Shown here one piece after another: positions 2,934 to 29,410 of a stretch of DNA of 56,791 bases (the first letter of the stretch is position 1; each line of letters begins with the position of its first letter). Both the position numbers and the translations under genes were made by a program. The DNA comes from Candidatus Zixiibacteriota bacterium (GTDB taxonomy: Bacteria; RBG-13-66-14; B26-G2; WVWN01). Below the pieces are notes generated by a model. The model was not told the DNA's origin, did not search any database, and was given only the letters and a program-made list of their open reading frames with translations. The DNA lies in assembly GCA_011773985.1 (NCBI GenBank), contig WVWN01000003.1:2898-59688 (forward strand), in the 5' to 3' direction.

Positions 2934-3650
2934 TTATCGGTACAACCCTTTAATCTTCCCGAACGAGCCGGGGTTCGTGCCGACGACGTCAATATCGACC
3001 TGGTAGACCCAATTGTTAGTATCGTTAATGAGCCAAAGGTACTGGCCGTCAAAAGTCGTGCCGGCGGCCTCGCCGCCGTCCGGGACGGGGAAGCTCGCGA
3101 CGACGGACCCGGTAGTGGTTACGTTGTACATACGGTTGCCGGGGCCGCCGACCCACAGCTTGTGGCCGTACCAGCCGAGGTCCGTCGCGAGCCTAAAAGG
3201 CGCCTTGAAGCTCCCGACGAAAGAGCCCGCGGTAGTGAACTTAGCGGGTCCGCACCATAAGTATGGGCTTTCCCACGTAACGCCGGGACCGAAAGAACCG
3301 GTGCCGAACCAATTAACCAACGAACCGGTAGTGGTTAATTGGTAATAATATATAGACTGCGTTGGGTGGGCGTCCGAATTCCATAAATATGCGCCGTCGA
3401 AGGTTAAACCCTTGATAAAGGTATAGGTGCCGCCTATATTGAAAGAACTTACTATTGAACCGGTAGTATTTGTGCGCAAGAAAACGGAACTTGGTTGTCC
3501 GGCGAACCACAGGTACGCGCCGTCCCAACAAAGCCCTGCGGTACCCGTACCACGCGGATGCGGGAACGAAGACACGACGTCGCCGAACGCGGCGTAAGCT
3601 ACGCCGGCCGGTAACGACAAAATAACGGCAATTTTTAGTGTTTTAACCAT
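2934..3650 (-). CDS. Secreted beta-propeller-like repeat protein with C-terminal tail PGSFGKIKGLYR
   Basis: Signal peptide; repeats GLx[WF]DGxYLW and TTTGSxVxSF; near-identical paralog of 3721-4437. Confidence 0.8.
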   Translation of the reverse strand: MVKTLKIAVILSLPAGVAYAAFGDVVSSFPHPRGTGTAGLCWDGAYLWFAGQPSSVFLRTNTTGSIVSSFNIGGTYTFIKGLTFDGAYLWNSDAHPTQSIYYYQLTTTGSLVNWFGTGSFGPGVTWESPYLWCGPAKFTTAGSFVGSFKAPFRLATDLGWYGHKLWVGGPGNRMYNVTTTGSVVASFPVPDGGEAAGTTFDGQYLWLINDTNNWVYQVDIDVVGTNPGSFGKIKGLYR

Positions 3651-3677
3651 ATCTTATCCCCCTTCGCCGCTTCCGCC

Positions 3678-3710
3678 TTAGCTTTCGCCAAAGCGGGCGG
3701 GCTTTTGTAA
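3678..3710 (-). pseudogene. Short 3'-end remnant (LQKPARFGES*) of a paralog of the 526-aa gene
   Basis: Matches the remnant at 4465-4527 and sits at an equivalent position just upstream of the shared GAAGGGGGATAAGAT RBS. Confidence 0.45.
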
Positions 3711-3720
3711 CGTTACTAAT

Positions 3721-4437
3721 TTACCGGAAAAGCCCCTTAATCTTCCCGAACGAGCCCGGGTTCATGCCGACGACGTCGATGTCGACCTGGTAGACCCAAC
3801 CGTTGGTGTCGTTGATAAGCCATAAGTATTGGCCGTCGAATGTAGTCCCGGCGGCCTTGCCGCCGGCGGGGACGGGGAAGCTCGCGGCGACGGAGCCGTT
3901 GGTGGTTACGTTATACATACGGTTGCCCGGGCCGCCGACCCACAACTTGTGGCCGTACCAGCCGAGGTCCGTCCCCAAAGCGAAGGGCGGATTGAAACTG
4001 GTCACGAACGAACCCCCGGTAGTGAACTTGGCTGGCCCGCACCAGAGGTAGGGGCTTTCCCACGTTACCCCGGGCCCGAAACCCCCAGCCCCAAACCTAC
4101 TCACATGAGACCCGGTTGTGGTTAAACGGTGATAAGAATAAAGATAAGTTAAATTCCACCACGAGTACCAAAGGAATGCACCGTCGCAAGTCAAACCTCT
4201 AATATAACTGTACCCGGCCCCTATGTTAAAGGACCCCGCGAACGAGCCGGTAGTTGTCGTCCGGATAAAATGTGATGCAGGCTGGCCCGCAAACCACAAG
4301 TAAGCACCGTCCCACGCTAGGCCGGAGTACCCAACTCCTCCCGGATGACGGAACGATGAAACGACGTCGCCTAACGCGGCGTAGGCTGTGCCGGCTAGTA
4401 AAAATAAAGTAATGGTAAATTTTAGTGTTTTAAGCAT
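3721..4437 (-). CDS. Secreted beta-propeller-like repeat protein with C-terminal tail PGSFGKIKGLFR
   Basis: Signal peptide; tandem paralog of 2934-3650 with near-identical C-terminal half. Confidence 0.8.
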   Translation of the reverse strand: MLKTLKFTITLFLLAGTAYAALGDVVSSFRHPGGVGYSGLAWDGAYLWFAGQPASHFIRTTTTGSFAGSFNIGAGYSYIRGLTCDGAFLWYSWWNLTYLYSYHRLTTTGSHVSRFGAGGFGPGVTWESPYLWCGPAKFTTGGSFVTSFNPPFALGTDLGWYGHKLWVGGPGNRMYNVTTNGSVAASFPVPAGGKAAGTTFDGQYLWLINDTNGWVYQVDIDVVGMNPGSFGKIKGLFR

Positions 4438-4464
4438 ATCTTATCCCCCTTCATTCCGGCCGCG

Positions 4465-4527
4465 TTAGCTTTCGCCGAAGCGCGGCGGCTTTTGGAATTT
4501 GTATATGTGGACGTCTTCGCCCAGGTA
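4465..4527 (-). pseudogene. 3'-end remnant (YLGEDVHIYKFQKPPRFGES*) of a paralog of the 526-aa gene
   Basis: Aligns with the C-terminus YPGEVAIYKFQTPAPWHP* of 1311-2891. Confidence 0.6.
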
Positions 4528-4647
4528 TACCCGCGAAGCTAACGATAAATAAAAAGGCGCCCGCGGTTCCCGTCGAGAGGAACGGCGCCCAAAATTCTCG
4601 CTGGCCTTATTTCGTCTCCCCACGGCGACTTTTCACCCTCGACGCTA

Positions 4648-4676
4648 ACGTTATACCTTCCCGCCCGCGCTGTCAA
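4648..4676 (-). promoter_or_regulatory. Sigma70-like promoter TTGACA-17-TAACGT for the secreted-protein cluster
   Basis: Consensus -35 at 4671-4676, TAnnnT -10 at 4648-4653, 17-nt spacer. Confidence 0.55.
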
Positions 4677-4688
4677 GAGCTATTTAAT

Positions 4689-4720
4689 AAAAAATCCTCC
4701 GCTCGAGGCGAGGAGTTTTT
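4689..4720. terminator. Hairpin terminator, diverged copy of the fbp terminator
   Basis: AAAAATCCTCCGCTCGAGGCGAGGAGTTTTT versus AAAACCCCCCGCTCAAGGCGAGGGGTTTT at 6650-6680. Confidence 0.6.
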
Positions 4721-4742
4721 ACCGGCCTCGTATTCCGGCCCC

Positions 4743-4838
4743 TCAGATATCTTCGCAGCGGCCCTCGAGCTTCTCCCGGACCGCGGGCATGGTGGCGTAT
4801 TCCATCTCGCCGTACGTGGGGCGGTGCGGCGTTAAGGG
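4743..4838 (-). pseudogene. fbp: Degenerate duplicate of the fbp 3' end
   Basis: Translates PLTPHRPTYGEMEYATMPAVREKLEGRCEDI* versus fbp PFEPHRLPFAEMEYTTMPAVQEKLEGRWEDI*. Confidence 0.85.
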
Positions 4839-4867
4839 CCGGCCGGGGCGAGCGGTGAATTTTTTCC

Positions 4868-4918
4868 TTGACACGGCAGGCCGGGTATAGTATATTTTAC
4901 CTACAGTATGTAGGTAAA
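4868..4918 (+). promoter_or_regulatory. Promoter TTGACA-17-TATATT with adjoining inverted-repeat operator TTTACCTACA-gta-TGTAGGTAAA
   Basis: -35 at 4868-4873, -10 at 4891-4896, perfect 10-bp arms at 4896-4918 directly before the TrmB ATG. Confidence 0.7.
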
Positions 4919-4922
4919 TAAT

Positions 4923-5786
4923 ATGACCGACGAGCCCCCCCACGATTTCCTCCTGACGTTAGGCCTGACGGCGTACGAGGCCCGGACGTACGCGGCGTTG
5001 TTAAAGCACCCCGCAGCGGCCCCCGCCGTCGTTGCCCGCGAAGCCGGCATCCCGGCCCCCCACGTCTACCGCGTCCTGCGCCGTCTGGTGGAATCGGGCT
5101 TTGCGGCCCGGTCGTCGGCCGGCCGGATCACGTACCGCCCCGTCGACCCGGACCAGGCGATCGCGAGGCTCGAGGCCCAAGAGCGCGAGCGGCGCGACCG
5201 TACGGACCGGGCCGTGGCCGTCGGAAAAGAGGTTTTAAAAAAAATTTTCGCGGAGGCGGCGCGGGAACCGGCGTTGGAGGAATATATCGAGATCAACAAG
5301 AATCAGGCCCGGATCTTCGCCCGCATGGCCGACCGGCTCGAGGCCGCTCGGCGTCAAGTCTTGGCTTTCGCGAAGCCGCTCGGCTTCGCGACGACGCCGG
5401 CCCGGGGGTCCTTCGCGGAAAGGTACGCGCTCACCCTCCGGGCGCTGAAACGGGGGGTAGAGATCAAAGCCCTCTACGAGTCGCCGGAAAGCGCGAGTCC
5501 GGCCGGGGAGCAAAGGCTTAAGGATTTAAACCGGCTCGCGGCGCGCGGCGAACAGATCAGATTGGTGAAAGAGCTGCCGATGCGGATGTACGTCTTCGAC
5601 GGCCGCGAAGTGGCGATTACGCTCGAGGACCCGGCGACGACGAAGCCGACCATAACCTGTCTCGCGGTAACCCACCGTGCTTTGGCGACCGGGTTAACGG
5701 TCTTCTTTGAAAAATATTGGGCCGAGGCCAAGCCGCTGGCCCGGCCCCGAGGAAAACGAAAGCGTAAGACCGCGGGGGCCGGTTAA
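4923..5786 (+). CDS. TrmB family transcriptional regulator
   Basis: N-terminal LGLTAYEARTYAALL...IPAPHVYRVLRRLVESGF wHTH; C-terminal PLD-like domain (MRMYVFDGREV...FEKYW). Confidence 0.9.
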   Translation: MTDEPPHDFLLTLGLTAYEARTYAALLKHPAAAPAVVAREAGIPAPHVYRVLRRLVESGFAARSSAGRITYRPVDPDQAIARLEAQERERRDRTDRAVAVGKEVLKKIFAEAAREPALEEYIEINKNQARIFARMADRLEAARRQVLAFAKPLGFATTPARGSFAERYALTLRALKRGVEIKALYESPESASPAGEQRLKDLNRLAARGEQIRLVKELPMRMYVFDGREVAITLEDPATTKPTITCLAVTHRALATGLTVFFEKYWAEAKPLARPRGKRKRKTAGAG

Positions 5787-5903
5787 GCCTCCTTCCGCGG
5801 AAAGGAATTCCCGCGCGCGGGAAAGGCCCTCGCCTCGCCGGTACCGTCAAGCTGCGTTTTAGGTTTTAAACCCCGAAAACCCTAACCAGGGGAGGCAAGA
5901 AAG

Positions 5904-6512
5904 ATGAGAGAAGGAATTTGCACGATCGCCGTCGCGGCCACGGTGTTCGCCGCGGCCGCCGCCGTCGCCGCGGAATACGAGCTTAAATGGGACAACGGGA
6001 CGATCAGCCACGGCGTTCATTACGTTACCGGTCCCGACATATGGGTCGGTAACGATTTCAACGTGTCGACCCTCAAGACCTCCCACCGCTACATCCGCCA
6101 GTTCGGGGTCGTGATGGGCCCGGGATCAAACCGCGTGTGGGACGGCTTCCGCCTCGCGATCTGGGCTTGGCCCCGCGGCAACAAGATCTGGCCAGAGAAC
6201 GGCGTGCCCGTGTTCGTCAAACCCACGGGCGGAACGGCGTGGTATTGGTTTGACGTGAATTGGGTTCTCCCCTCGCAGTACACGGCCTTTATCGCGGCCG
6301 TGGAACAGTATTACAACCCGCCGAATTGCGACGACATCTTCGTCGACACGGGCCCGAAGCGAAATCATTCCTGGATGGGTTACGGGACCCCCACCTGGTA
6401 CGCCTGGCCTCAAAATAATAACGTTATGGTCCGCGTCCGCTATGACCCGGATTATAGCGGTTCCGCCGTAGCGCCGACGAGCCTGGGGCGGGTGAAGGCG
6501 CTATATAAATGA
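5904..6512 (+). CDS. Secreted beta-rich protein with C-terminal tail AVAPTSLGRVKALYK
   Basis: Signal peptide, SD GGGGAGG; sequence unrelated to the propeller families but same tail. Confidence 0.8.
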   Translation: MREGICTIAVAATVFAAAAAVAAEYELKWDNGTISHGVHYVTGPDIWVGNDFNVSTLKTSHRYIRQFGVVMGPGSNRVWDGFRLAIWAWPRGNKIWPENGVPVFVKPTGGTAWYWFDVNWVLPSQYTAFIAAVEQYYNPPNCDDIFVDTGPKRNHSWMGYGTPTWYAWPQNNNVMVRVRYDPDYSGSAVAPTSLGRVKALYK

Positions 6513-6649
6513 GGACAACGGCGGGAGGGGGGAGGTAGGGCGACGTACCGGGGCGACCTCCGGGCCGCCCCTTAACGCTTAACGCCGCGTCGGGAAACGC
6601 GAGGGCGCCGCGGCGGGTAGGAAACCCGCCGCTACTTGGGCGTTAAGAT

Positions 6650-6680
6650 AAAAACCCCCCGCTCAAGGCGAGGGGTTTTC
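6650..6680 (-). terminator. Rho-independent (probably bidirectional) terminator of fbp
   Basis: GC hairpin flanked by A and T tracts between convergent genes. Confidence 0.65.
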
Positions 6681-6701
6681 CGCGTCCCGTTCTTAGGACA
6701 C

Positions 6702-7802: not shown

Positions 7803-8054
7803 GGCTTAGGTGCCTCCTTAATTTATTGAAGGATAAGGGCCTCTTTGGCTAAATCCTATTATTATAACATTATAAAATTTATTGCGCAAGCGCACGGCTC
7901 CCGAAGGTTACTTTTTTCTCATCGTTAAATAAGGTTTTATTGGTAACGTGGGGCGGCCGTGCCGTCGGGCGCCGAGGCGGCGGAAAGGCGTTATATTGGT
8001 GGAAAACAATAACGAGAGGCCGGCCGGTGACGGCCGGTTTTTTTGGGCGGCTTT

Positions 8055-19635: not shown

Positions 19636-19637
19636 TT

Positions 19638-20306: not shown

Positions 20307-21269
20307 TTACCGGAACAACGCCTTCACGCGGCCGAGGGAGGCCGGCGCGACGGCGACGTTGACCCACCGGAAGTACTGGATGCGGTTGTTCTGGGTGTCC
20401 GCGACGTAGACGCGGTTCCCGCCGGGCGCCACCGCGACGCCGAACGGGTTCTTGAAGCGGCTGTTCGCCCCGCCCCGCGAGCCCCACTTGCCCAGGAACG
20501 AGCCGCTAGCCGTGAAGTACTGGATGCGGTCGTTGCCCATGTCGGCGACGTAGACGTAGCCGTTGGGCGCGACGGCGATACCCCAGGCCGATTCGAACTG
20601 GCCGTCGGCCGCGCCGCGCCTGCCCCACTGGCCCAGGTACGAGCCCACGGGGGTAAAATACTGGACGCGGTGGTTGTCGCCGTCGGTGACGTACGCGTTG
20701 TTGTTGGGGGCGAGTGCGACGCTTATGGCCGCGAGAAACTCGCCCTGGCCTGAGCCCCGCGAGCCCCACTTGCCCAGGAACGAACCGCTGGAGGTGAAGT
20801 ACTGGACGCGCTCGTTTTCGCTGTCGACGACGTAGACGTAGCCGTTAGCGGCCGCGGCCGCGTCGGTAGGCATCTCGAACTGGCCGTTGCCGGTCCCCTT
20901 CGAGCCCCACCGCCCGAGTAAGCTGCCGCTCGCGGTGAAGTACTGGATGCGGTTGTAGTTAGTGTCGGCGACGTAGACGCTGCCGGCGGGAGCCACGCCC
21001 AGGCCGAACGGGAAGTACATCTCCAAGACGCCGCCGAATTTGCCGAGGAACGAGCCGGTCGGCGTGAAGTATTGGATGCGGCTGTTGTAGGTGTCGGCGA
21101 CGTAGACGTTTCCGCTGGGGCCGACGGCCACGTCCATCGGCGTGGCGAACTGGCCGTCGCCCATGCCGCTGGAGCCCCATTTGCCCTCGTAGACCCATTC
21201 CGCGAGAGCGCCGGAGGCGAGGGCCAGCGCGGCGAGCGCCGCGGCCGTAGCGATTTTGCCTAGTAACAT
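20307..21269 (-). CDS. Secreted NHL-repeat 6-bladed beta-propeller, tail VAPASLGRVKALFR
   Basis: Signal peptide; six repeats of P.GVAVAP.G.VYVAD..N.RIQYFT..GSFLGKWG. Confidence 0.92.
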   Translation of the reverse strand: MLLGKIATAAALAALALASGALAEWVYEGKWGSSGMGDGQFATPMDVAVGPSGNVYVADTYNSRIQYFTPTGSFLGKFGGVLEMYFPFGLGVAPAGSVYVADTNYNRIQYFTASGSLLGRWGSKGTGNGQFEMPTDAAAAANGYVYVVDSENERVQYFTSSGSFLGKWGSRGSGQGEFLAAISVALAPNNNAYVTDGDNHRVQYFTPVGSYLGQWGRRGAADGQFESAWGIAVAPNGYVYVADMGNDRIQYFTASGSFLGKWGSRGGANSRFKNPFGVAVAPGGNRVYVADTQNNRIQYFRWVNVAVAPASLGRVKALFR

Positions 21270-21381: not shown

Positions 21382-21927
21382 CTACCGGAACAACGCCTTT
21401 ATCCGCCCCACGGACGACGGCGCGACCGCGGGCTCGGTCCAGCGGAAGTACTGGATGCGGTAGTTAAAGGTATCGGCTACGTATACGCGGGTGGCTGTAG
21501 GCGAAGGGGCTACGCCTGCGGGCCAATATAACTCGCCGTTGCCTGACCCGCGGGTACCCCATTTGCCGAGGAACGAACCGGCGGCAGTGAAATATTGTAT
21601 GCGATGTCTCTGCGTATCGGCGACGTAAACGTTGCCGTTGGGTGCTACGGTGATGCCTTCCGGGTATCTGAATTCGCCGTTACCCGAACCATAAGTACCC
21701 CATCTACCAAGGAAAGAACCTGTTCCCGTGAAATACTGAACGCGGTTGTTATACGTGTCTATTACGTAGACGTTGCCATTAGGGTTTAGGGCTACTTCGT
21801 AAGGGTTTTCGAATTGGCCCGGGCTATTCCCGCGGGAGCCCCACTTGCCTTCGTAGACGTAGTCGCTTAACGCGGGAATCGCCGCGGCAACCGATATCGC
21901 AATCCCCAAAAACGCGTTCGTTTTCAT
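21382..21927 (-). CDS. Secreted NHL protein with only three repeats, tail VAPSSVGRIKALFR
   Basis: N-terminal two repeats nearly identical to 25113-26084, joined in frame to a terminal repeat. Confidence 0.85.
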   Translation of the reverse strand: MKTNAFLGIAISVAAAIPALSDYVYEGKWGSRGNSPGQFENPYEVALNPNGNVYVIDTYNNRVQYFTGTGSFLGRWGTYGSGNGEFRYPEGITVAPNGNVYVADTQRHRIQYFTAAGSFLGKWGTRGSGNGELYWPAGVAPSPTATRVYVADTFNYRIQYFRWTEPAVAPSSVGRIKALFR

Positions 21928-21979: not shown

Positions 21980-22004
21980 GGGGCGACTGGCCAGTCGCCC
22001 CTAC
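21980..22004. repeat. Partial REP-like palindrome GGGGCGACTGGCCAGTCGCCCCTAC
   Basis: Matches the 28-bp palindrome minus its first three bases; overlaps TAG at 22001-22003. Confidence 0.85.
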
Positions 22005-22755
22005 TCGAACAGCGCGTTCACGCGGCCGAGGGAGGCGGGTACGACATATTCCGAGGTCCGGGTATACCAGTAATAGTAATCCGTAGCGTCGTCTATTACG
22101 TATAACTCCTTGTCGTAAGGGGGCGCCGTATACGCGGTATAACCTAAGCCGAGGGCGTTTGGATTCCCGTGATAATCGGTACGCCGTTCTCATATACCGT
22201 ATGCGTCGCCGCGTCGGCGACGTATAAGTGGGCGTAGCCGCAACAGCCGGTGGGGCGGCGCCCGGGGCCCGCGAACGTACCGACGAGCGAGCCCGTCGTT
22301 CGGTTTAAAAGGGCGATTGAGTTACGGTCGGGGATGGCGACTATTAAACCGGGAGGAAAGGACGCCTTAAAGTCTAAATCCGCCGGCCCGTAGAACGGGC
22401 ACCGAAACGAGCTTACGACCGAACCTTGCTTCGTGGTCTCGTATATCCACGACGTCCGGTTATTAGTTATGTAAAACGTTTCGGTATGGTAATATACACC
22501 CCACGCCCCCGGCCCCCCGGGCGCGGGGAAACTCGACCGGATTGTACTCTGTTCCCAAGAGTAGCGATACACGTAAGGGTTAGGGCCGTCTATGACGATA
22601 TAACCCGCAAAGGGCGTACCACTCGAATAACCCCGCGGATTGGGCCCCGGCGTGGGGTACGAGGCCATCAACTTCCAAGCGTCGCCATAACTCGCGCCGC
22701 AAACGCAAACGAGTAATAATCCCAAGGTAAGTAACTTCTTCGCCGCTTTAATCAC
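22001..22755 (-). pseudogene. Frameshifted secreted propeller-like gene (paralog of 26161-26910)
   Basis: GTG 22755; frame ends IQTPSA*; adding one C near 22153-22155 restores QTPLGLGYTAYTAPPYDKELYVIDDATDYYYWYTRTSEYVVPASLGRVNALFE*. Confidence 0.85.
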
Positions 22756-22885
22756 CTCCCACGACGACGTTGTCCTCGCGGGCCGGCTTGTAGTTGTGCT
22801 TCGTCGCCGTGAGCTTGCCTTCGAAAAATACAAAACCGCCGCTGCCGCGAAGGGCGCGCCGGTTGGGTATAGTTTTCTCTACCAT
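22748..22885 (-). pseudogene. Leader fused to C25-peptidase-like C-terminal remnant (45 codons, ...EGKLTATKHNYKPAREDNVVVGGD*)
   Basis: 3' part matches the end of 26903-27205; 5' part matches leaders starting at 24986 and 29197. Confidence 0.7.
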
Positions 22886-22911
22886 ACTTCCCTCCTCGTT
22901 CCTTCTAGTTA

Positions 22912-22941: not shown

Positions 22942-22987
22942 GCGGTTTTTTTATTAAGAAAACCCGCCTCGGCGGCGGCCTAACGTA

Positions 22988-23015
22988 GTAGGGGCGACTG
23001 GCCAGTCGCCCCTAC
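22988..23015. repeat. Perfect 28-bp palindrome GTAGGGGCGACTGGCCAGTCGCCCCTAC (REP-like)
   Basis: Read directly; contains the TAG stop of 23012-23980; followed on the minus strand by a hairpin-T terminator. Confidence 0.92.
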
Positions 23016-23980
23016 CGGAACAACGCCTTAATTCTACCCACCGACGAGGGCGCGACCGCGGGCTCGGTCCAACGGAAGTACTCGATCCGGTGGTTACGAT
23101 GGTCTACGACGTAGGTACGGCCGCCGTTCGCCGTCAAGGCTAGGTTAAAGGGCCAATCGAATTCGCCGTTACCCCTCCCGGGAGTCCCCCATTTCCCTAG
23201 GAACGAGCCGCTCGAGGTAAAATATTGGATGCGGTTATTATTCCTGTCGGCTACGTAAATGTAACCGTCGCTCCCGTACGTGATCCCTTCGGGGAATTGG
23301 AATTGGCCGTCGCCCGTACCTTGCGAGCCCCATTTGCCGAGGAACGAGCCGCTAGAGGTGAAATATTGGACGCGATGATTATCGCGGTCGGTAACGTAAA
23401 CGTTACCGTTCGGGGCGACCATTACGTACATGGGCGGCCTGAATTGGCCGTCGCCCCTCCCCGCGGAGCCCCATTTTCCGAGGAAAGACCCGCCCGGCGT
23501 GAAGTATTGGACGCGGTAATTGCCGACGTCGGTTACGTACCAGTTCCCGCTCGCCGCGAACGCTATTCCCTTAGGCCCCCGGAACTGGCCATTCCCCGTA
23601 CCCTCCGAGCCGTGAAAGCCGAGATAGGACCCGGTGGAAGTGAAGTATTGGACGCGATGATTATCGAAATCGGTAACGTATACGTCACCCCTCGAGGCAA
23701 ACGCCAAGCCCCGGGCGAGGTCGAACTGGCCCGGGCCCGTACCGAGCGAACCCCATTTGCCGAGGAATGACCCGGTAGCAGTAAAGTATTGTACCCGGTT
23801 ATTATAAGCGTCTGCCACGTATACGTTGCCATTGGCTGCTATCGCGATATCTTCCGGGAGGTTGAACTGGCCGTTACCGGTGCCTCCGGAACCCCACTGG
23901 CCTTCGTAGACCCAAACACCCGAGGCCAGCGGGGCGGCGACCACAAACCCGCCAACTGTGCATAAGACGTAACGCTTCAT
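23012..23980 (-). CDS. Secreted NHL-repeat 6-bladed beta-propeller, tail VAPSSVGRIKALFR
   Basis: Signal peptide, six NHL repeats. Confidence 0.92.
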   Translation of the reverse strand: MKRYVLCTVGGFVVAAPLASGVWVYEGQWGSGGTGNGQFNLPEDIAIAANGNVYVADAYNNRVQYFTATGSFLGKWGSLGTGPGQFDLARGLAFASRGDVYVTDFDNHRVQYFTSTGSYLGFHGSEGTGNGQFRGPKGIAFAASGNWYVTDVGNYRVQYFTPGGSFLGKWGSAGRGDGQFRPPMYVMVAPNGNVYVTDRDNHRVQYFTSSGSFLGKWGSQGTGDGQFQFPEGITYGSDGYIYVADRNNNRIQYFTSSGSFLGKWGTPGRGNGEFDWPFNLALTANGGRTYVVDHRNHRIEYFRWTEPAVAPSSVGRIKALFR

Positions 23981-24063
23981 AATGTTTCCCCTTTTATTAT
24001 TTATAACGATGAATAAGGGCCCGCATTTACGCAGACCCTATTTACGGGCGAACTGTCGCGCAT

Positions 24064-24801
24064 CTATTTAAACAATCCCTTGACGCGGCCGAGCGACCCC
24101 GGCGCGACGGCCTCGTGGCCGCGCCACTCAAATCTATATATATAGTTAGTGGCCCTGTCAACAACCAACGTACGTGCATAAGGCGGGCCGTCTGTTAAAC
24201 GTTCCGCACACGCGGCTACCGGGGCATTCAAGTATCCGGTACCATAACCCAAAAAATATACCTTATGGGTCGCCGGATCGCCTAATATAGCGTTAGACGT
24301 GCTAACAGCGTCAATAGCCGTCAAACGGGTCCCAGGGCCGCGGAAAGAACTTAGGACCGAACCGGTCGTTGTTATCCTTATTGCAAGGTTATCGTCCGGA
24401 ATAGCGACATATAGCAACCAATCGCTAAGGTCGGCCGGGTGGGCCTTGGGGCAGCGGAATGAAGATATAACCGAACCGGTCGTCGTTAATTCATAGATGA
24501 AGCTATTATTATAGTTAGAAACCAAAATAGCATCCGAACCCCAACTCCTTAAACCCCAAACACCCCGCGGAACGTCCAACGTAATATATTCCGACGGCTT
24601 ACCCAGGTTATATACCCGCGGCGGCGAGCCGTCGCAAAGTACAGAACCGCCGTACGGGGCGTAGTAAGCGATACCGCGCGCGTTAAGGGCCGGAGCGGGA
24701 TAGGAGCCAACGACCATCCACCCCGTAGCCTCAATACTACCTACCGGGAGGAAAACAGCCGCTAACAACAAAGCTGCCGGTGATCTCACGTTAAAACCCA
24801 C
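24064..24801 (-). CDS. Secreted propeller-like protein, tail VAPGSLGRVKGLFK
   Basis: Signal peptide; IYELTTTGSVISSFRCP...PADL shared with 26161 and 28314 genes. Confidence 0.8.
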   Translation of the reverse strand: MGFNVRSPAALLLAAVFLPVGSIEATGWMVVGSYPAPALNARGIAYYAPYGGSVLCDGSPPRVYNLGKPSEYITLDVPRGVWGLRSWGSDAILVSNYNNSFIYELTTTGSVISSFRCPKAHPADLSDWLLYVAIPDDNLAIRITTTGSVLSSFRGPGTRLTAIDAVSTSNAILGDPATHKVYFLGYGTGYLNAPVAACAERLTDGPPYARTLVVDRATNYIYRFEWRGHEAVAPGSLGRVKGLFK

Positions 24802-24814
24802 TTGGCGAAAATCA

Positions 24815-24986
24815 TTACTGAATATTCAGGTCCGTCTTGTAGGCCGGGACGCAGTTTTTCATGGTCGCCGTAAGGTGAACGTTGCTCGCGGCCTCGGGAA
24901 CGATAAACTCGCAATTGCCTTCGTCGAAATACAAAGCCGCCGCTGCCGCGAACGGCGCGCCGGTTGGGTATAATTTTCTCTACCAT
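24815..24986 (-). pseudogene. Leader fused to a different C25-like C-terminal remnant (...FDEGNCEFIVPEAASNVHLTATMKNCVPAYKTDLNIQ*)
   Basis: Leader nearly identical to the 22885 copy up to TTGTATTTCGA, then a paralogous LTATxxNxxPA tail. Confidence 0.6.
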
Positions 24987-25012
24987 ACTTCCCGCCTCGT
25001 TATTTCTTGTTA

Positions 25013-25042
25013 ATTATATGCTTTAATCAACTCCTACGTCAA
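25013..25042 (-). promoter_or_regulatory. Repeated promoter TTGACG-18-TATAAT (copy 2)
   Basis: Direct repeat of 22912-22941. Confidence 0.7.
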
Positions 25043-25088
25043 GCGCTTTTTTTATTAAGAAAAGCCGCCTCGGGGGCGGCCTAACGTC

Positions 25089-25116
25089 GTAGGGGCGACT
25101 GGCCAGTCGCCCCTAC
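25089..25116. repeat. Perfect 28-bp REP-like palindrome
   Basis: Identical to 22988-23015; contains TAG of 25113-26084. Confidence 0.92.
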
Positions 25117-26084
25117 CGGAACAACGCCTTTATCCGCCCCACCGACGACGGCGCGACCGCGGGTTGCGATTCGCGGAAATACTGAATACGGTGGTTGTAA
25201 GAGTCCGCTACGTAAACCTTATTTGCCGTCGGCGTAGCGGCGACGCCAAGCGGCATATAAAATTGGCCGTTACCAGACCCACGCGTACCCCATTTACCAA
25301 GGAACGAACCGCTTGGCGTAAAATACTGGACGCGGTGATTATACGTATCGGCTACGAAAATCCTGCCGACCGGCGAAGCGCCTACGCCCGCGGGCCTGTT
25401 GAATTGCCCGTCGCTCGTACCGTAAGACCCCCATATGCCGAGGAAGCTGCCGGTCGACGTAAAGTATTGGACGCGATGGTTTAAAGCTTCGGTAACGTAA
25501 ACTTGATAGCGGGTTGAGAGGAAACCAAGGCCGTGGGGCTGATTAAACTGGCCCCACGCCGTACCGTACGAACCCCATTTGCCCAAGAAGGAACCGCTCG
25601 AGGTGAAGTATTGGACGCGGTGGTTATAGTATTCTGCAACGTAAACGTTGCCGTTCGGCGCCACGGCGACGCGAATGGGACGATTGAATTGACCGTTACC
25701 GGAGCCCAGCGTACCCCATTTACCTAGAAACGACCCAGTGGGGGTGAAATATTGTATGCGGTGTCTTTGCGTATCGGCGACGTAGACGTTGCCGTTCGGT
25801 GCTAAGGCTATGCCTTCCGGGTATCTGAATTCACCGTTACCCGAACCATACGTACCCCATCTACCAAGGAAAGACCCTGCTTGCGTAAAATACTGAACGC
25901 GGTTGTTGTACGTGTCGACGACGTAAACGTTCCCGTTAGGCGCGAGCGTTATTTCACGAGGTCTATCGAATTGGCCCGGGCTATTCCCGCGGGAGCCCCA
26001 CTTGCCTTCGTATACGTAGTCTGTTAAGGCCGGGGTAACCGCGACTAGTAAAATGGCAATAACTAAAAATATGGTCCGCTTCAT
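25113..26084 (-). CDS. Secreted NHL-repeat 6-bladed beta-propeller, tail VAPSSVGRIKALFR
   Basis: Signal peptide, six NHL repeats. Confidence 0.92.
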   Translation of the reverse strand: MKRTIFLVIAILLVAVTPALTDYVYEGKWGSRGNSPGQFDRPREITLAPNGNVYVVDTYNNRVQYFTQAGSFLGRWGTYGSGNGEFRYPEGIALAPNGNVYVADTQRHRIQYFTPTGSFLGKWGTLGSGNGQFNRPIRVAVAPNGNVYVAEYYNHRVQYFTSSGSFLGKWGSYGTAWGQFNQPHGLGFLSTRYQVYVTEALNHRVQYFTSTGSFLGIWGSYGTSDGQFNRPAGVGASPVGRIFVADTYNHRVQYFTPSGSFLGKWGTRGSGNGQFYMPLGVAATPTANKVYVADSYNHRIQYFRESQPAVAPSSVGRIKALFR

Positions 26085-26160
26085 TTAGGCCCCTTTACGC
26101 GTTACCCTAAGCGGTTCCTGCTCCGCCACCCCGTATAAAGCCCCGAAAGGCCGTTCGCCC

Positions 26161-26910
26161 CTACTCGAACAACGCCTTCACGCGGCCGAGGGAGGCGGGT
26201 ACGATATCTCCCGACGTACGGGCGTAGTAGTAATAGTAATCCGTGGCGTCGTCAACGACATATAACTTGATGTCGTATGGCGGTTCCATACTCCAAGTAT
26301 AACTAAAACCTACCGGCGTTTGGATACCCGCGATAATCGGTACGGCGTCCTCGTATATCTTGTGGGTCGCGGCGTCGGCTACGTAGAAGTGCGCGTACCC
26401 GCCACACCCCGTAGGGCGGCGCCCCGGCCCGGCGTACGTACCGATAAGGGAACCCGTCGTATAGTTTAAAACCGCTATTATATTGCGGTCGGGAACCGCA
26501 ATTATAAAGCCCGGCCACGCGAATTCGCAATCGGCGGGCCCGTCGAATGGGCATTGGAAGGAATTTACTACCGAGCCTTGTGTGGTCGCCTCGTATATCC
26601 AAGAAGTTCGGTTATTGGTTATAAAAAAACCGCTACCCGTTATTTTTGCTATTCCCCACGCCCCCGGCCCCCCGGGCGCCGGGAAACTCCAAACGATCGA
26701 GCTGCTTGTCCAAGAATAAAAATAAACGTGGGGTTCGCCCCCGTCCATTACTATATACCCCGCCTCGGGACCAATGCCCCAATAACCGCGCGGATTGGAC
26801 CCGGGCGTGGGGTACGAGGAGACCAACGTCCACACGTCGCCATAACTCGCGCCGCTAACACAAAACAACAACAATCCCAAGGTAAGTAACTCCTTCGCCG
26901 CCTTAATCAC
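26161..26910 (-). CDS. Secreted propeller-like protein, tail IVPASLGRVKALFE
   Basis: Signal peptide; SYPTPGSNPRG, FPAPGGPGAWG family motifs; SD GGAGG overlapping the GTG start. Confidence 0.85.
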   Translation of the reverse strand: MIKAAKELLTLGLLLFCVSGASYGDVWTLVSSYPTPGSNPRGYWGIGPEAGYIVMDGGEPHVYFYSWTSSSIVWSFPAPGGPGAWGIAKITGSGFFITNNRTSWIYEATTQGSVVNSFQCPFDGPADCEFAWPGFIIAVPDRNIIAVLNYTTGSLIGTYAGPGRRPTGCGGYAHFYVADAATHKIYEDAVPIIAGIQTPVGFSYTWSMEPPYDIKLYVVDDATDYYYYYARTSGDIVPASLGRVKALFE

Positions 26911-27205
26911 CTCCCACGACGACGTTGTTCTCGATGGCCGGCTTGTAATTGTGCTTCGTAGCCGTGAGTTTGCCGTCGTCGAAGCCGAATAAAAGGTCCT
27001 CGAAGGTGCACCTCCCGTGGGTGCCGGTCGTGTTTGTAAGGTAGTACCAATGTTGCCAAAGGCACACCTTGGCCCCCGGTACCGTTTGGTTACCGGTGGT
27101 CGTCACCGTAACTTCTAGCGTCTTCATCGTACCGTTCGCCCACCAAGTGTAGTCGATATTTAACGGCGCGGGCTCCGCGGTCCACAGCTCCATCGTCGGG
27201 TCGCC
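26903..27205 (-). pseudogene. 3' fragment of a C25 (gingipain-like) peptidase gene
   Basis: GDPTMELWTAEP resembles the end of the C25 catalytic domain, followed by an Ig-like segment VTV...VPGAKVCL...LTATKHNYKP; the upstream part of the gene is replaced by a terminator. Confidence 0.65.
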
Positions 27206-27242
27206 GCGCCACGAAAAGCCGCCTCGCGGGCGGCCTACGGTC

Positions 27243-27270
27243 GTAGGGGCGACTGGCCAGTCGCCCCTAC
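27243..27270. repeat. Perfect 28-bp REP-like palindrome
   Basis: Identical to 22988-23015; contains TAG of 27267-28238. Confidence 0.92.
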
Positions 27271-28238
27271 CGGAACAACGCCTTAATTCTACCCACCGAC
27301 GAGGGCGCGACCGCGGGCTCGGTCCAACGGAAGTACTGGATGCGGTCGTTAAAGGTATCGGCGACGTAAACGCGAGAACCATTCGCAGAAACTACGACGC
27401 CTTCGGGGTAATAGAACTCCCCGTTGCCCGAACCCCTCGTACCCCACTTGCCGAGGAATGAACCGTCGGGAGTGAAATACTGGATGCGGGCGTTGTAGAT
27501 GTCCGCTACGAAGACGTTGGCGTTAGGGGCCGTCGCGACGCCGTAAGGACGGTTGAATTGGCCGTCGCCGCTACCCTGCGAGCCCCATTTACCGAGGAAA
27601 GAGCCGCTCGAGGTAAAGTATTGGACGCGGAAGTTAAGGCGGTCGCCGATGTAAACGCGGGCCCCCGACGGGAGGACGGCAACGCCCATCGAGCGATTGA
27701 ATTGGCCGTTACCGGAGCCGGACGCACCCCACTTGCCGAGGAACGAGCCGCTCGCGGTGAAGTATTGGACGCGGTCGTTCTCGGTGTCGCCGACGTATAC
27801 GTTGCCGTTGGGAGCGACCGCTATCCCGAAAGGCCGCTCGAATTGGCCGTCGCCGGCGCCCTGTGAGCCCCATTTGCCGATGAACGACCCCGTCGGCGTG
27901 AAATATTGGATCCGGTGTCGAGCCGTATCAGCGACGTAAACGTTGCCGTTGGTAGCGACCGCGATACCTTCCGGGTATCTAAATTCGCCGTCCCCCGAAC
28001 CAGATTTACCCCAATTACCGCGAAAATGACCTTCCCACGTGAAGTACTGGACGCGGTGGTTATAAGTGTCGGCTACGTAAACGTTGCCGTTAGGGGCTAG
28101 GCCAATACCCGTAGGCTTATCGAATTGGCCTAACTGGGACCCGGACGCCCCCCACTTGCCCTCGTAGACCCACGCGGCTAAACCCGACGTAACCGCGGCG
28201 GCGAAAACGGCAACTGCGTAAAACGCAGTCCTTTTCAT
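27267..28238 (-). CDS. Secreted NHL-repeat 6-bladed beta-propeller, tail VAPSSVGRIKALFR
   Basis: ATG 28238 after SD AAAGGAGG; six NHL repeats. Confidence 0.92.
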   Translation of the reverse strand: MKRTAFYAVAVFAAAVTSGLAAWVYEGKWGASGSQLGQFDKPTGIGLAPNGNVYVADTYNHRVQYFTWEGHFRGNWGKSGSGDGEFRYPEGIAVATNGNVYVADTARHRIQYFTPTGSFIGKWGSQGAGDGQFERPFGIAVAPNGNVYVGDTENDRVQYFTASGSFLGKWGASGSGNGQFNRSMGVAVLPSGARVYIGDRLNFRVQYFTSSGSFLGKWGSQGSGDGQFNRPYGVATAPNANVFVADIYNARIQYFTPDGSFLGKWGTRGSGNGEFYYPEGVVVSANGSRVYVADTFNDRIQYFRWTEPAVAPSSVGRIKALFR

Positions 28239-28313
28239 CTCGCCTCCTTTGCGCGGAGTACCGAACCCCAAAGCGAGAGGCCCGGTTACGAAAGAACGAA
28301 AGGCTTTTCGCCC

Positions 28314-29057
28314 CTAATCGAATAACGCCTTCACGCGGCCCAACGACGCGGGTTCGGCCTTTGACGAATCACGATATAAGTAGATATAATCGGTCGCGTC
28401 GTCAATTACCTGGACGCCGACTACGGAGCCCTTTGCCATTATGGCGATATTACCGAAGCCGGTGGGGGTTTTAATGCCCGTAATTACGGGTTTGCCTTCC
28501 TCGTAAACGGCGTGTGTTGCCGAATCCGCAACGAAGAACTCGCCGGGGTAGCCGCCACACGCCGTCGGCCGCGAGCCGGGTGCTTTGAACGTACTTACCA
28601 ACGAGCCCGTATTCTCGTCTACGACGACGATAACGTTCCGTTCCGGGATCGGTATATAAAGCTTGGAGCCAAACCCCCTGTCCATGTCGGCGGGCCCGGC
28701 GACCGGGCACCGGAACGAACTAACAACCGAGCCGGTCGTAGTAACCTCATAAATCCAGGAACTCCTTTCGTTAGATAAGTACATGTTCGAACCGGGGCCC
28801 GGACATATGCCCCAAGCCCCCCGGCCGCCCGGCGCCAGGAAACTCGCTATAATCCGCCCCGTGTACCAATACATCCGATAGACGTAAGGCGTCGCGCCGT
28901 CCTGAACGATATATCCCCTCAATTCACCGTCGCTCGTATAACCGCGGGGATTGGGCCCGGGCGTAGGATAGGAAGCATAAAGCTCCCAGGTGGCCGCGGC
29001 CGCGGCTACGGCGATGAAAACCGTACACGCGGCCGCCCAAATAGATTTGTCTCTCAT
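28314..29057 (-). CDS. Secreted propeller-like protein, tail AEPASLGRVKALFD
   Basis: Signal peptide; paralog of 26161-26910. Confidence 0.85.
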   Translation of the reverse strand: MRDKSIWAAACTVFIAVAAAAATWELYASYPTPGPNPRGYTSDGELRGYIVQDGATPYVYRMYWYTGRIIASFLAPGGRGAWGICPGPGSNMYLSNERSSWIYEVTTTGSVVSSFRCPVAGPADMDRGFGSKLYIPIPERNVIVVVDENTGSLVSTFKAPGSRPTACGGYPGEFFVADSATHAVYEEGKPVITGIKTPTGFGNIAIMAKGSVVGVQVIDDATDYIYLYRDSSKAEPASLGRVKALFD

Positions 29058-29062
29058 GATTA

Positions 29063-29197
29063 CTACTCTCCTACCGTAACGTTGTCCTCAAGAGCCGGCT
29101 TGTAGTTGTGCTTCGTCGCCGTGAGCTTGCCGTCGAAATACAAAACCGCCGCTGCCGCGAGGGGCGCGCCGGCTTAGTTGGATTACCGAAAGGACAT
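29063..29197 (-). pseudogene. Leader with two in-frame stops fused to C25-like remnant (MSFR*SN*AGAPLAAAAVLYFDGKLTATKHNYKPALEDNVTVGE*)
   Basis: Manual translation; repeat of the 22748-22885 block. Confidence 0.7.
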
Positions 29198-29223
29198 ACT
29201 TCCCTCCTCGTTCCTTCTAGTTA

Positions 29224-29253
29224 ATTATATACTTTAATCAACTCCTGCGTCAA
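29224..29253 (-). promoter_or_regulatory. Repeated promoter TTGACG-18-TATAAT (copy 3)
   Basis: Direct repeat of 22912-22941. Confidence 0.7.
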
Positions 29254-29311
29254 GCGCTTTCTTTATCAAGAAGAGCCGCCTCGGGCGCGGTGCCGTGTAA
29301 ACGCAAGACAT

Positions 29312-29378
29312 GTAGGGGCCGGTCTTTAGACCGGCCCGCCCCCGCGCGAAACGGGCCGACCTGAAGGTCGGCCCCTAC
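29312..29378. repeat. REP-like doublet, right boundary of array
   Basis: GTAGGGGCCGGTCTTTAGACCGGCCC...GGGCCGACCTGAAGGTCGGCCCCTAC; direct repeat of 20218-20285. Confidence 0.8.
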
Positions 29379-29410
29379 CGGAACAACGCCTTAACGCGGC
29401 CTAGTGAGGT
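29375..29410 (-). pseudogene. Orphan C-terminal tail TSLGRVKALFR* with no gene body
   Basis: ACC TCA CTA GGC CGC GTT AAG GCG TTG TTC CGG TAG read on the minus strand. Confidence 0.85.

What the first reader, a model, noticed from the sequence alone, without database searches (positions are those of the whole stretch)
2934..29410. Candidate protein-sorting/anchoring signal: conserved C-terminal PxSxG[RK][VI]K[AG]L[FY]x tail on unrelated secreted proteins
Seen: 11 intact genes (2934, 3721, 5904, 20307, 21382, 23012, 24064, 25113, 26161, 27267, 28314), one frameshifted gene and one orphan fragment end in this ~12-aa motif exactly at the stop codon. All intact ones have N-terminal signal peptides and they belong to at least three families. 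Codons vary synonymously (Gly GGC/GGG/GGT, Arg CGC/CGG/AGA, Ser TCC/TCG/AGC), so selection acts on the peptide. Other exported proteins here (TPRs, M23, PG-binding) lack it. Knowledge: it has no TM helix, unlike LPXTG, PEP-CTERM or GlyGly-CTERM, and is much shorter than a T9SS CTD. Inference: a basic amphipathic helix (hydrophobics at i, i+3, i+6, i+7) used as an export, cleavage or surface-docking tag. I recall similar WGxIK-type tails in some candidate phyla but cannot verify prior description.
Basis: partly seen in the sequence, partly recalled or inferred. Interest (0 to 1): 0.88.

Follow-up and report, generated by a model that had tools for sequence, protein, structure and literature searches.

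The report
Short C-terminal tag on exported proteins
About one in fifteen proteins of this uncultured Coatesbacteria genome, all made with export signals, ends in the same roughly 15-residue tail, which recurs in variant form in other little-known phyla and looks like an undescribed address label for the cell envelope.

Summary
All 11 window genes, the frameshifted gene and the orphan fragment end in ..P-x-S-[LVF]-G-[RK]-[VI]-K-[AG]-L-[FY]-x-stop. In the whole genome the core motif occurs 147 times, always within 4 residues of a stop, never internally (controls 0.3 to 3 hits). About 158 of 2,398 called genes carry it, in at least 13 families; 141 of 143 longer ones have signal peptides. Codon use shows selection on the peptide. 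The tag is present in 24 of 25 genomes of the phylum. A W-variant (P-x-[ST]-W-G-x-I-K-x-[LM]-Y-R) occurs in 18 of 18 genomes of an Eisenbacteria-labelled phylum and in three other lineages. All tag-bearing lineages have a type IX secretion system (T9SS). Within families the tag alternates with the T9SS C-terminal domain or an N-terminal lipobox. Structure models show a low-confidence appendage behind a linker, not part of the fold. Pfam and NCBIfam have no model, and paper searches found no description. Best reading: a dedicated envelope sorting or retention signal with an unknown receptor, possibly T9SS-linked. Function is inferred, not shown.

The parts
2937..2981 (-). C-terminal tag (last 15 codons) of gene 2934-3650, a 238-aa family-1 protein with no Pfam match
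   Evidence..VVGTNPGSFGKIKGLYR then stop; signal peptide MVKTLKIAVILSLPAGVAYA; Pfam none
3724..3768 (-). C-terminal tag of gene 3721-4437, a paralogue of the gene above
   Evidence..VVGMNPGSFGKIKGLFR then stop
6465..6509 (+). C-terminal tag of gene 5904-6512, a 202-aa lectin/CBM-like beta-sandwich
   Evidence..SAVAPTSLGRVKALYK then stop; fold residues 24-181 at pLDDT 88-97 per 10-residue block, tag at about 50; 118 of 120 listed database homologues end in the tag and 2 in near-variants
20310..20354 (-). C-terminal tag of NHL-repeat gene 20307-21269
   Evidence..VAVAPASLGRVKALFR then stop; NHL PF01436 E=1.6e-37
21385..21429 (-). C-terminal tag of NHL-repeat gene 21382-21927
   Evidence..PAVAPSSVGRIKALFR then stop; NHL E=1.6e-20
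22004..22048 (-). Degenerate tag of the frameshifted gene (ORF 22144-22833 plus a downstream frame ending at 22001)
   Evidence: after ..GIQTPSA and a stop, another frame continues ..YVVPASLGRVNALFE then stop; the otherwise invariant Lys is Asn
23015..23059 (-). C-terminal tag of NHL-repeat gene 23012-23980
   Evidence..PAVAPSSVGRIKALFR then stop
24067..24111 (-). C-terminal tag of gene 24064-24801 (245 aa, no Pfam match)
   Evidence..EAVAPGSLGRVKGLFK then stop; Pfam and NCBIfam none
25116..25160 (-). C-terminal tag of NHL-repeat gene 25113-26084
   Evidence..PAVAPSSVGRIKALFR then stop
26164..26208 (-). C-terminal tag of gene 26161-26910 (249 aa, no Pfam match)
   Evidence..GDIVPASLGRVKALFE then stop
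27270..27314 (-). C-terminal tag of NHL-repeat gene 27267-28271
   Evidence..PAVAPSSVGRIKALFR then stop; NHL E=1.3e-39
28317..28361 (-). C-terminal tag of gene 28314-29057 (247 aa, no Pfam match)
   Evidence..SKAEPASLGRVKALFD then stop
29378..29410 (-). Orphan tag remnant without a gene body, next to an AT-rich ORF (29442-30566)
   Evidence..KRTSLGRVKALFR then stop, in a 27-aa frame; the neighbouring ORF has no Pfam match

Best explanation
The tail is a genuine, modular C-terminal sorting or retention tag of about 15 residues. Its consensus is [AV]-x-P-[AST]-[ST]-[LWVF]-G-x-[VI]-K-[AGS]-[LMI]-[FY]-x-COOH, with Gly and Lys invariant across phyla. It sits on soluble proteins that first cross the inner membrane through Sec.

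Shown:
- It is selected at the peptide level.
- It lies strictly at the C-terminus.
- It is coupled to signal peptides.
- It is shared by unrelated folds and detached from them.
- It is conserved across at least two candidate phyla plus three further lineages.

Inferred: after export the flexible tail is read by one conserved envelope receptor. This directs or holds the protein at the outer membrane or cell surface. In that role it is an alternative to the two other devices that paralogues of the same families use, the T9SS C-terminal domain and an N-terminal lipid anchor. The most likely link is to the type IX secretion apparatus or one of its shuttle barrels, because every tag-bearing lineage found has a T9SS. 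Whether the tag is cleaved, for example at the P-x-S-[LW]-G turn, is unknown.
For: Position and chance: 147 of 147 motif hits lie within 4 residues of a stop and none is internal; controls give 0.3 to 3 hits.

Peptide selection: third codon positions are free, Ser uses TCN and AGY, and conservation ends at the stop.

Scale: 158 of 2,398 called genes carry the tag, with a bimodal score, in at least 13 families.

Signal peptides: 141 of 143 tagged genes of at least 150 aa, after resolving wrong starts and UGA read-through.

Modularity:
- Family 3 has T9SS-CTD members (about 540-840 aa), tag members (about 330 aa) and lipoproteins.
- In the NHL family 32 of 41 signal-peptidase-I-type paralogues are tagged. 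The 11 clear lipobox paralogues are not; a twelfth call is tagged but ambiguous.
- Five tandem lipoprotein paralogues carry a TAG stop just before tail remnants in graded decay.
- In the Eisenbacteria-labelled beta-helix family 93 of 120 homologues match the strict tag, about 22 more carry variants, and 2 longer members carry a T9SS-type CTD instead.
- 0 of the 158 tagged genes overlap the 29 CTD genes.

Detached from the fold: two unrelated models have confident domains, then a weak linker (below 50 in one model, about 72 falling to 52 in the other), then the tag at about 50-60.

Distribution:
- 24 of 25 phylum genomes.
- 18 of 18 genomes of the phylum of G176.
- Outside the phylum, 4 of 46 SprA-positive genomes against 0 of 130 SprA-negative ones.
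- PorU matches in 25 of 25 phylum genomes at E <= 0.001.

A pseudogene copy has lost the invariant Lys.
Against: - No receptor, peptidase or translocon was found. No gene family is enriched next to carriers.
- PorV-family paralogue counts do not separate tag-positive from tag-negative genomes.
- 42 of 46 T9SS-positive outside genomes lack the tag, so a T9SS is not sufficient. The association may only reflect shared ancestry.
- Passages of PMC10994853 describe Type A CTDs as 7-stranded beta-sandwich domains bound in a shaped pocket formed by the PorV loops and SprA. A 15-residue peptide cannot mimic that.
- CTD repertoires are roughly constant across the phylum while tag counts vary from a few to more than 150, so there is no trade-off (first-look candidate counts only).
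- Some carriers are thioredoxin-like UxxC proteins. Relatives of these usually work in the periplasm (my knowledge), which fits periplasmic retention better than secretion.
- No experimental data exist; all the organisms are uncultured.
Confidence: 0.5

Rival explanations
1. Receptor-free membrane anchor. The tail is a short interfacial amphipathic element (Trp/Leu, Ile/Val, Leu/Met and Tyr/Phe flanked by Arg/Lys). It sticks exported proteins peripherally to a membrane leaflet or to lipopolysaccharide, in the way the C-terminal amphipathic helix anchors E. coli PBP5 (recalled from my own knowledge).
For: One model draws the W-type tag as a helix, WGAIKAIF. The hydrophobic moment as a helix is 0.45-0.48. 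Trp, Tyr and basic residues are typical interfacial residues (my knowledge). Lipobox paralogues lack the tag, as expected if both are membrane anchors. Thioredoxin-like carriers would suit a periplasmic, membrane-proximal position.
Against: Gly and Lys are invariant, and Pro and Ser/Thr nearly so, across phyla. That is far more than membrane binding requires. The element is only about 9-10 residues long. The other model draws a beta-hairpin. The strand moment is equal or higher, 0.46-0.72. Both models have low confidence.
Confidence: 0.2
2. Processing or covalent-attachment signal. A peptidase or transpeptidase cuts at the conserved P-x-S-[LW]-G turn, or uses the invariant Lys, to link the protein to an envelope polymer such as lipopolysaccharide or peptidoglycan. 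This would be functionally like PorU or sortases, but without a membrane-spanning intermediate.
For: The invariant small-residue/Gly motif and the invariant Lys. PorU-type C25 peptidase homologues are present in 25 of 25 phylum genomes, with several C25 paralogues per genome. The tag meets most criteria of the small C-terminal sorting signals listed in passages of the Haft preprint.
Against: There is no transmembrane segment to hold a substrate at a membrane enzyme. There is no sortase hit and no exosortase hit above cut-off in G000, which is 90.6% complete. No evidence of cleavage exists. The residue after the aromatic varies, and some lineages add 2-3 residues.
Confidence: 0.12
3. Assembly element. 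The tail is a donor strand or hairpin that docks carriers onto each other or onto a scaffold to build a surface coat.
For: The hairpin-like model with one hydrophobic face. Carriers are small, beta-rich, highly paralogous and arranged in tandem arrays (runs of up to 7 adjacent tagged genes).
Against: At least 13 unrelated folds would each need an acceptor site. No scaffold candidate was found. The tail is not docked with confidence in the monomer models.
Confidence: 0.08
4. C-terminal degradation or quality-control tag read by a periplasmic tail-specific protease.
For: C-terminal position with a hydrophobic end. Tail-specific proteases that read C-termini are widespread (my knowledge).
Against: It is unlikely that 6.6% of genes, including whole families (118 of 120 listed homologues), would be kept under purifying selection for a degron. 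The last residue varies, and extra residues are tolerated.
Confidence: 0.04
5. DNA-level repeat, assembly artefact or chance.
For: None beyond the recurrence itself.
Against: Third positions are free, there is no conservation past the stop, and both Ser codon classes are used. The motif is found in many independent assemblies and phyla. Controls give 0.3 to 3 hits.
Confidence: 0.01

Closest known systems
Tripartite small C-terminal sorting signals (LPXTG/sortase, PEP-CTERM/exosortase, GlyGly-CTERM/rhombosortase, MYXO-CTERM/myxosortase)
   Same: At the extreme C-terminus, with dozens to more than 100 copies per genome, at least 3 near-invariant signature residues, on signal-peptide proteins of unrelated families. 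These criteria come from passages of bioRxiv 10.1101/2023.06.07.544157.
   Different: No hydrophobic transmembrane segment and no Arg cluster; the whole tag is about 15 residues and ends in one variable, mostly basic, residue. No sortase hit and no exosortase hit above cut-off in the genome.
T9SS Type A C-terminal domain (TIGR04183) with the PorV shuttle and PorU
   Same: Found only in T9SS-bearing lineages in the samples searched. It alternates with the CTD within protein families. Both end in a basic/hydrophobic stretch with a conserved Lys a few residues from the end: this genome's CTDs end ..AAK[RK][LM]VV[VA][RK], and an 'almost invariant' Lys is described in passages of PMC10994853.
   Different: The CTD is a folded 7-stranded sandwich of about 70-100 residues recognised by shape. 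The tag is 15 residues, has no match to the CTD model, and sits on much smaller proteins (median 248 against 680 aa). Most T9SS-positive genomes lack it.
Outer-membrane-protein C-terminal beta-signal read by BAM (recalled from my own knowledge)
   Same: A short C-terminal motif without a transmembrane helix, with alternating hydrophobic residues and an aromatic near the end, on Sec substrates of diderm bacteria.
   Different: The aromatic is penultimate, not terminal, and is lost in one lineage. Carriers are soluble beta-sandwich, propeller and beta-helix domains, not barrels.
C-terminal helix of SkpA docking on PorV in the Flavobacterium T9SS translocon
   Same: A short ordered C-terminal element of a periplasmic protein contacting the periplasmic side of a PorV barrel (passages of PMC10994853).
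   Different: That is a single structural contact of one chaperone, and the same passages report it as not essential. No sequence relation was tested. It is a lead only.

Membership tests
Tripartite C-terminal sorting signals (LPXTG, PEP-CTERM, GlyGly-CTERM, MYXO-CTERM class) | Located at or very near the C-terminus, with many copies per genome | tested here: met
   147 of 147 hits within 4 residues of a stop; 158 tagged genes
Tripartite C-terminal sorting signals (LPXTG, PEP-CTERM, GlyGly-CTERM, MYXO-CTERM class) | Signature motif with at least 3 near-invariant residues | tested here: met
   P, S, G, K and L invariant in the window set; S, G and K invariant in the 24-row set, which includes one out-of-phylum tail; only G and K invariant across phyla
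Tripartite C-terminal sorting signals (LPXTG, PEP-CTERM, GlyGly-CTERM, MYXO-CTERM class) | Hydrophobic segment long enough for a transmembrane helix after the motif | tested here: not met
   Only 7-8 residues follow the Gly, and two of them are Lys/Arg
Tripartite C-terminal sorting signals (LPXTG, PEP-CTERM, GlyGly-CTERM, MYXO-CTERM class) | Cluster of 2-5 basic residues at the end | tested here: not met
   One terminal residue, often R or K but also E, D, N, Y, Q or H
Tripartite C-terminal sorting signals (LPXTG, PEP-CTERM, GlyGly-CTERM, MYXO-CTERM class) | N-terminal signal peptide on most members | tested here: met
   141 of 143 tagged genes of at least 150 aa; the detector is crude
Tripartite C-terminal sorting signals (LPXTG, PEP-CTERM, GlyGly-CTERM, MYXO-CTERM class) | Cognate sortase or exosortase-type enzyme in the genome | tested here: not met
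   Sortase PF04203: 0 hits. Exosortase PF09721: 2 hits, both below cut-off. The genome is 90.6% complete. Rhombosortase and CPBP-type enzymes were not searched
T9SS Type A CTD (TIGR04183) | Folded beta-sandwich C-terminal domain of about 70-100 aa matching the family model | tested here: not met
   No NCBIfam or Pfam hit on the tails; 0 of 158 tagged genes overlap the 29 CTD genes
T9SS Type A CTD (TIGR04183) | Occurs in genomes that encode the T9SS (SprA, PorU, PorV) | tested here: met
   PorU matches at E <= 0.001 in 25 of 25 phylum genomes (over the curated cut-off in 3 of 25); SprA in all 4 outside tag-positive genomes
T9SS Type A CTD (TIGR04183) | Secretion depends on the T9SS and the signal is removed by PorU | not testable with these tools
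   Needs genetics or proteomics
OMP beta-signal | Terminal aromatic residue on a beta-barrel outer-membrane protein | tested here: not met
   The aromatic is penultimate; carriers are soluble domains
C-terminal amphipathic membrane anchors | Amphipathic helix with weak sequence conservation | tested here: inconclusive
   Helix moment 0.45-0.48 and strand moment 0.46-0.72; models disagree between hairpin and helix; conservation is much stronger than expected for such anchors

The most novel reading that the evidence does not exclude
The tag defines a previously unrecognised protein-sorting pathway of T9SS-bearing candidate phyla (Coatesbacteria, an Eisenbacteria-labelled phylum and others). A 15-residue C-terminal label without a transmembrane segment would be read by a dedicated, still unknown receptor or translocon. 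It would send up to about 6.6% of the proteome, including probable exported selenoproteins, to the outer membrane or cell surface. That would make it a third kind of signal beside the folded T9SS CTDs and the tripartite sortase-type signals.
Probability: 0.35. Interest if true: 0.9.

Novelty: new variant of a known kind. Interest (0 to 1): 0.8.

Why it matters
C-terminal sorting signals have repeatedly led to new envelope machineries such as sortases, exosortases, rhombosortases, myxosortases and the T9SS. This one marks about 1 gene in 15 in a whole genus, is conserved across phyla known only from metagenomes, and is missing from the family libraries used for annotation. Its carriers are therefore all filed as 'hypothetical protein'.

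A profile of the tag would annotate thousands of proteins at once and define the exported and surface proteome of these phyla. It would also give a precise handle for finding the receptor, through phylogenetic profiling, tag-reporter fusions, or Gly and Lys point mutants. If the tag is T9SS-linked, it would show that T9SS lineages outside the Bacteroidota use a minimal signal beside the folded CTD.

Tried and rejected

2. Prior description. Literal-string searches for twelve tag fragments found only unrelated matches (11 papers, 2; listings seen). A word search on sorting-signal terms found 0 papers. The 'Coatesbacteria' search gave 8 papers, 7 listed, and 'Eisenbacteria' + 'C-terminal' + 'secretion' gave 1. 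I saw only those listings and none concerns the tag. Supplements are closed and were not seen. Papers outside the library could still describe it.

3. NCBIfam and Pfam on 8 whole carriers and NCBIfam on W-type tails gave no match to the tail. One of the six references (L142) was off-frame by my error, so 5 tails were truly tested.

4. Gene neighbourhood. No non-carrier family is convincingly enriched within 3 genes of carriers in G000 (best p = 0.006 for tiny families, uncorrected). Near 30 carriers of other phyla, only generic T9SS-CTD genes and ABC ATPases recur.

6. Test for a trade-off between CTDs and tags. I set the E-value too strict, so only first-look candidate counts are usable: 24-56 in f1 against 30-84 elsewhere. 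No clear trade-off.

7. Complex prediction with PorV (alignment A6, residues 21-320) and the tail (A3, residues 168-202) returned 'no answer', score 0.00, and the controls were not run. This is neither for nor against binding.

8. Fold search of the 202-aa carrier gave only weak lectin, CBM and jelly-roll resemblances, TM-score at most 0.46.

9. Organism labels for G090, G103 and G108 came back only as '[bacterium]'.

10. Not every profile hit is terminal:
- In G013, G014 and G020, 25 of 30 hits lie within 3 residues of the stop. Two have a 28-residue extension and one a 14-residue extension. One weak hit is internal and one lies at a contig edge.
- In the four outside genomes, 29 of 30 lie within 3 residues. 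One is 184 residues upstream in a frame that ends in a second tag.
- L006 (Clostridiales label) looks like chance.

11. Considered and dropped: a homo-oligomer co-fold, because at least 13 unrelated folds make a self-acceptor unlikely; and a sequencing-run or expression look-up, because it would not bear on tag function.

I added it and changed nothing else in the findings.

Full report
OBSERVATION

The frameshifted gene is real. ORF 22144-22833 stops early, and another frame continues to ..YVVPASLGRVNALFE then a stop, with the otherwise invariant Lys replaced by Asn. The orphan fragment at 29378-29410 reads ..KRTSLGRVKALFR then a stop.

The window lies in a 2.68-Mb, 91-contig, 90.6%-complete genome. 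A six-frame scan of that genome with the 7-residue core found 147 hits. Of these, 145 are followed by exactly one residue and a stop, and the other two by 3 and 4 residues. The reversed genome gives 3 hits, none near a stop. Shuffled proteins give 0.3 hits on average. No hit is internal to any of the 2,398 called genes.

PEPTIDE, NOT DNA

At 141 sites with enough flank, codon positions 1 and 2 of the last 15 codons are conserved and position 3 is nearly free. Ser is TCN 104 times and AGY 31 times. Leu uses CTN and TTR, and Arg uses CGN and AGR. Conservation ends at the stop, and all three stop codons are used. A DNA repeat or assembly artefact is excluded.

WHO CARRIES IT

With my own crude gene calls, a relaxed tag score is bimodal: 158 genes score 10 or more and the rest score 9 or less. 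That is 6.6% of genes. The strict-motif carriers fall into at least 13 BLAST families:
- NHL propellers (Pfam).
- A roughly 260-aa family without Pfam hits.
- A roughly 200-aa family whose model is a lectin/CBM-like beta-sandwich.
- Several others.

The median length is 248 aa, against 680 aa for the 29 genes with a T9SS-type C-terminal domain. No gene has both.

A crude detector finds signal peptides in 129 of 143 tagged genes of at least 150 aa, against 712 of 1,769 untagged genes. Of the 14 misses:
- 2 have over-extended starts.
- 10 continue upstream in frame through a single TGA to a classic signal peptide.
- 1 is a split gene.
- 1 has an unclear start.

So 141 of 143 carry a signal peptide.

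MODULARITY

Within families the tag alternates with other targeting devices.
- Family 3 has members of about 540-840 aa ending in a T9SS CTD, members of about 330 aa ending in the tag, and lipoproteins with neither.
- In the NHL family 32 of 41 signal-peptidase-I-type paralogues are tagged. The 11 clear lipobox paralogues are not. One further 'lipobox' call that is tagged is ambiguous, because its Cys lies inside the hydrophobic region.
- Five tandem lipoprotein paralogues (G000 C47:38222-44869) all end QYFKKRD and a TAG stop, followed in frame by tail remnants ranging from intact to unrecognisable. The tag was cut off once and then drifted, in exactly the copies that have a lipid anchor.
- All 120 listed database homologues of the window's 5904 family end in the tag: 118 match the pattern and 2 are near-variants.

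STRUCTURE

AlphaFold2 with 68- and 82-row alignments gave confident domains for two unrelated carriers.
- The 202-aa beta-sandwich covers residues 24-181 at pLDDT 88-97 per 10-residue block. Confidence then falls through 72 to about 50 over the tag, which is drawn as a small hairpin, APTSL-GR-VKALY.
- The 392-aa right-handed beta-helix runs to about residue 372, with most 10-residue blocks at 90-99. A linker drops below 50 (residues 376-382). The tag, at about 60, is drawn as a helix, WGAIKAIF.

So the tag is an appendage and not part of either fold, and its own conformation is unresolved. Hydrophobic moments fit helix and strand about equally.

DISTRIBUTION

Named records with the tag are labelled Candidatus Coatesbacteria. 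Some MAGs are labelled Zixiibacteriota or 'bacterium', and one record is labelled Krumholzibacteriia.

The phylum has 25 species genomes, and a tail profile hits 24 of them. Hits per genome are:
- 83 to at least 150 (capped) in the window's family.
- 48-57 in the sister family.
- 22 and 5 in two further families.
- 0-13 in the other class.

In those distant lineages the motif varies..VQPTSLG[KEQ][IV]KALFx..SSSVGEIKALFH and ..P[AST]SWG[RQA]IKAL plus 1-2 residues.

Among 176 genomes of other families, four have 10-20 hits each, of the form ..EP[AST]SWGx[IV]K[AGS][LMI][YF][RK], at or within 2-3 residues of the stop. One of these, G176, encodes a protein identical to an NCBI entry labelled Candidatus Eisenbacteria. 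In that beta-helix family 93 of 120 homologues carry the strict tag, with W, G and K invariant. About 22 carry variants, and 2 longer ones carry a T9SS-type CTD instead. All 18 species genomes of G176's phylum have 6-46 hits.

LINK TO THE T9SS

The genome has about 30-40 canonical Type A CTDs, a PorU homologue with a PorV-like gene next to it, and SprA. PorU matches (E <= 0.001) occur in 25 of 25 phylum genomes. The four outside tag-positive genomes have SprA and 89 to at least 150 CTDs each.

Outside the phylum, 46 of 176 genomes have SprA at E <= 1e-25. The tag occurs in 4 of these 46 and in 0 of the 130 without SprA. By my own hand calculation the chance of this is about 0.004, but the lineages are not independent, and 42 SprA-positive genomes lack the tag.

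This genome's CTDs end ..AAK[RK][LM]VV[VA][RK]. Passages of PMC10994853 describe an almost invariant, functionally important Lys near the CTD C-terminus. The same passages describe CTDs as 7-stranded beta-sandwich domains bound in a shaped pocket formed by the PorV loops and SprA. A 15-residue tag cannot mimic that. The same paper shows a short C-terminal helix of SkpA docking on PorV, which is a precedent but no more.

COMPARISON WITH KNOWN SIGNALS

Judged by the criteria quoted from the Haft preprint (passages), the tag meets these:
- Location at the C-terminus.
- Multiplicity within a genome.
- At least 3 invariant signature residues.
- Signal-peptide coupling.
- Unrelated carriers.

It lacks the transmembrane segment and the Arg cluster. 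The genome has no sortase hit and no exosortase hit above cut-off. Pfam and NCBIfam (release 20.0 of June 2026) have no model, and my paper searches found no description.

VERDICT

This is a real, strongly selected, modular C-terminal tag that is apparently undescribed. The most likely function is envelope sorting or retention through a conserved receptor, possibly tied to the T9SS. The main rival is a receptor-free interfacial anchor. No machinery was identified, and nothing about function is shown.

Noticed in passing
G000 contigs outside the window: C7:15826-18565 (3 genes), C26:9318-9800, C26:15658-16143, C25:53537-54097, C81:205551-206168, C90:4085-5583 (2 genes), C38:23811-24437: Ten tagged genes have one in-frame TGA (10 of 10 are TGA) between a classic signal peptide and the rest of the protein. 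The contexts look redox-active: W-TGA-GYCP, S-TGA-GQC and PFYGC-TGA. The genome has SelA and SelB above their curated cut-offs and one tRNA-SeC. The family-5 sites share a hairpin about 17-20 nt after the TGA (my reading of the printed folds; covariation not tested). These are probably Sec-exported selenoproteins, currently split or truncated by gene callers.
   Followed up: partly
G000 C47:38222-44917 (outside the window): Five tandem NHL lipoprotein paralogues end QYFKKRD and a TAG stop, followed in frame by tail remnants in graded decay. Their mature N-termini start Cys-Glu-Glu/Asp-x-Pro-Thr-Glu-Pro. That resembles the acidic lipoprotein export signal of Bacteroidota, a resemblance I recall and did not test.
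   Followed up: partly
window 29442-30566 (minus strand): An AT-rich 374-aa ORF lies in a 2-kb stretch whose GC is about 0.50, against 0.54-0.69 in the other bins. It has no signal peptide and no Pfam match, and it ends about 30 nt before the orphan tail fragment. It looks like an insertion that replaced the body of a carrier gene.
   Followed up: partly
window 22001-22833 (minus strand): The frameshifted carrier has also lost the invariant Lys of the tag (Lys to Asn), as expected for a decaying pseudogene.
   Followed up: yes
G000 C80:552-4034 next to SprA at C80:5609-9418; the same arrangement in G002, G004, G007 and G008: Tagged NHL genes lie directly beside the SprA translocon gene in several genomes of the genus. 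With 6.6% of genes tagged and close kinship between the genomes, this is weak evidence. It was not seen in the more distant lineages I looked at.
   Followed up: partly
G000 genome-wide: There are seven PorV/PorQ-like barrel paralogues in my own clustering, and 9 matches to NF033709. There are also several about 900-aa C25 (gingipain-like) peptidase paralogues, at least some ending in a T9SS CTD, in a 2.7-Mb genome.
   Followed up: partly
window 4923-5786 (plus strand): A TrmB-family regulator with a DUF7436 domain sits between two groups of tagged genes. No link to the tag was tested.
   Followed up: no
L151 / G090:C65:74309-74905: One 421-aa frame holds an internal tag-like match 184 residues before a terminal tag. 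It may be a fusion of two tandem carriers or a sequencing error.
   Followed up: no
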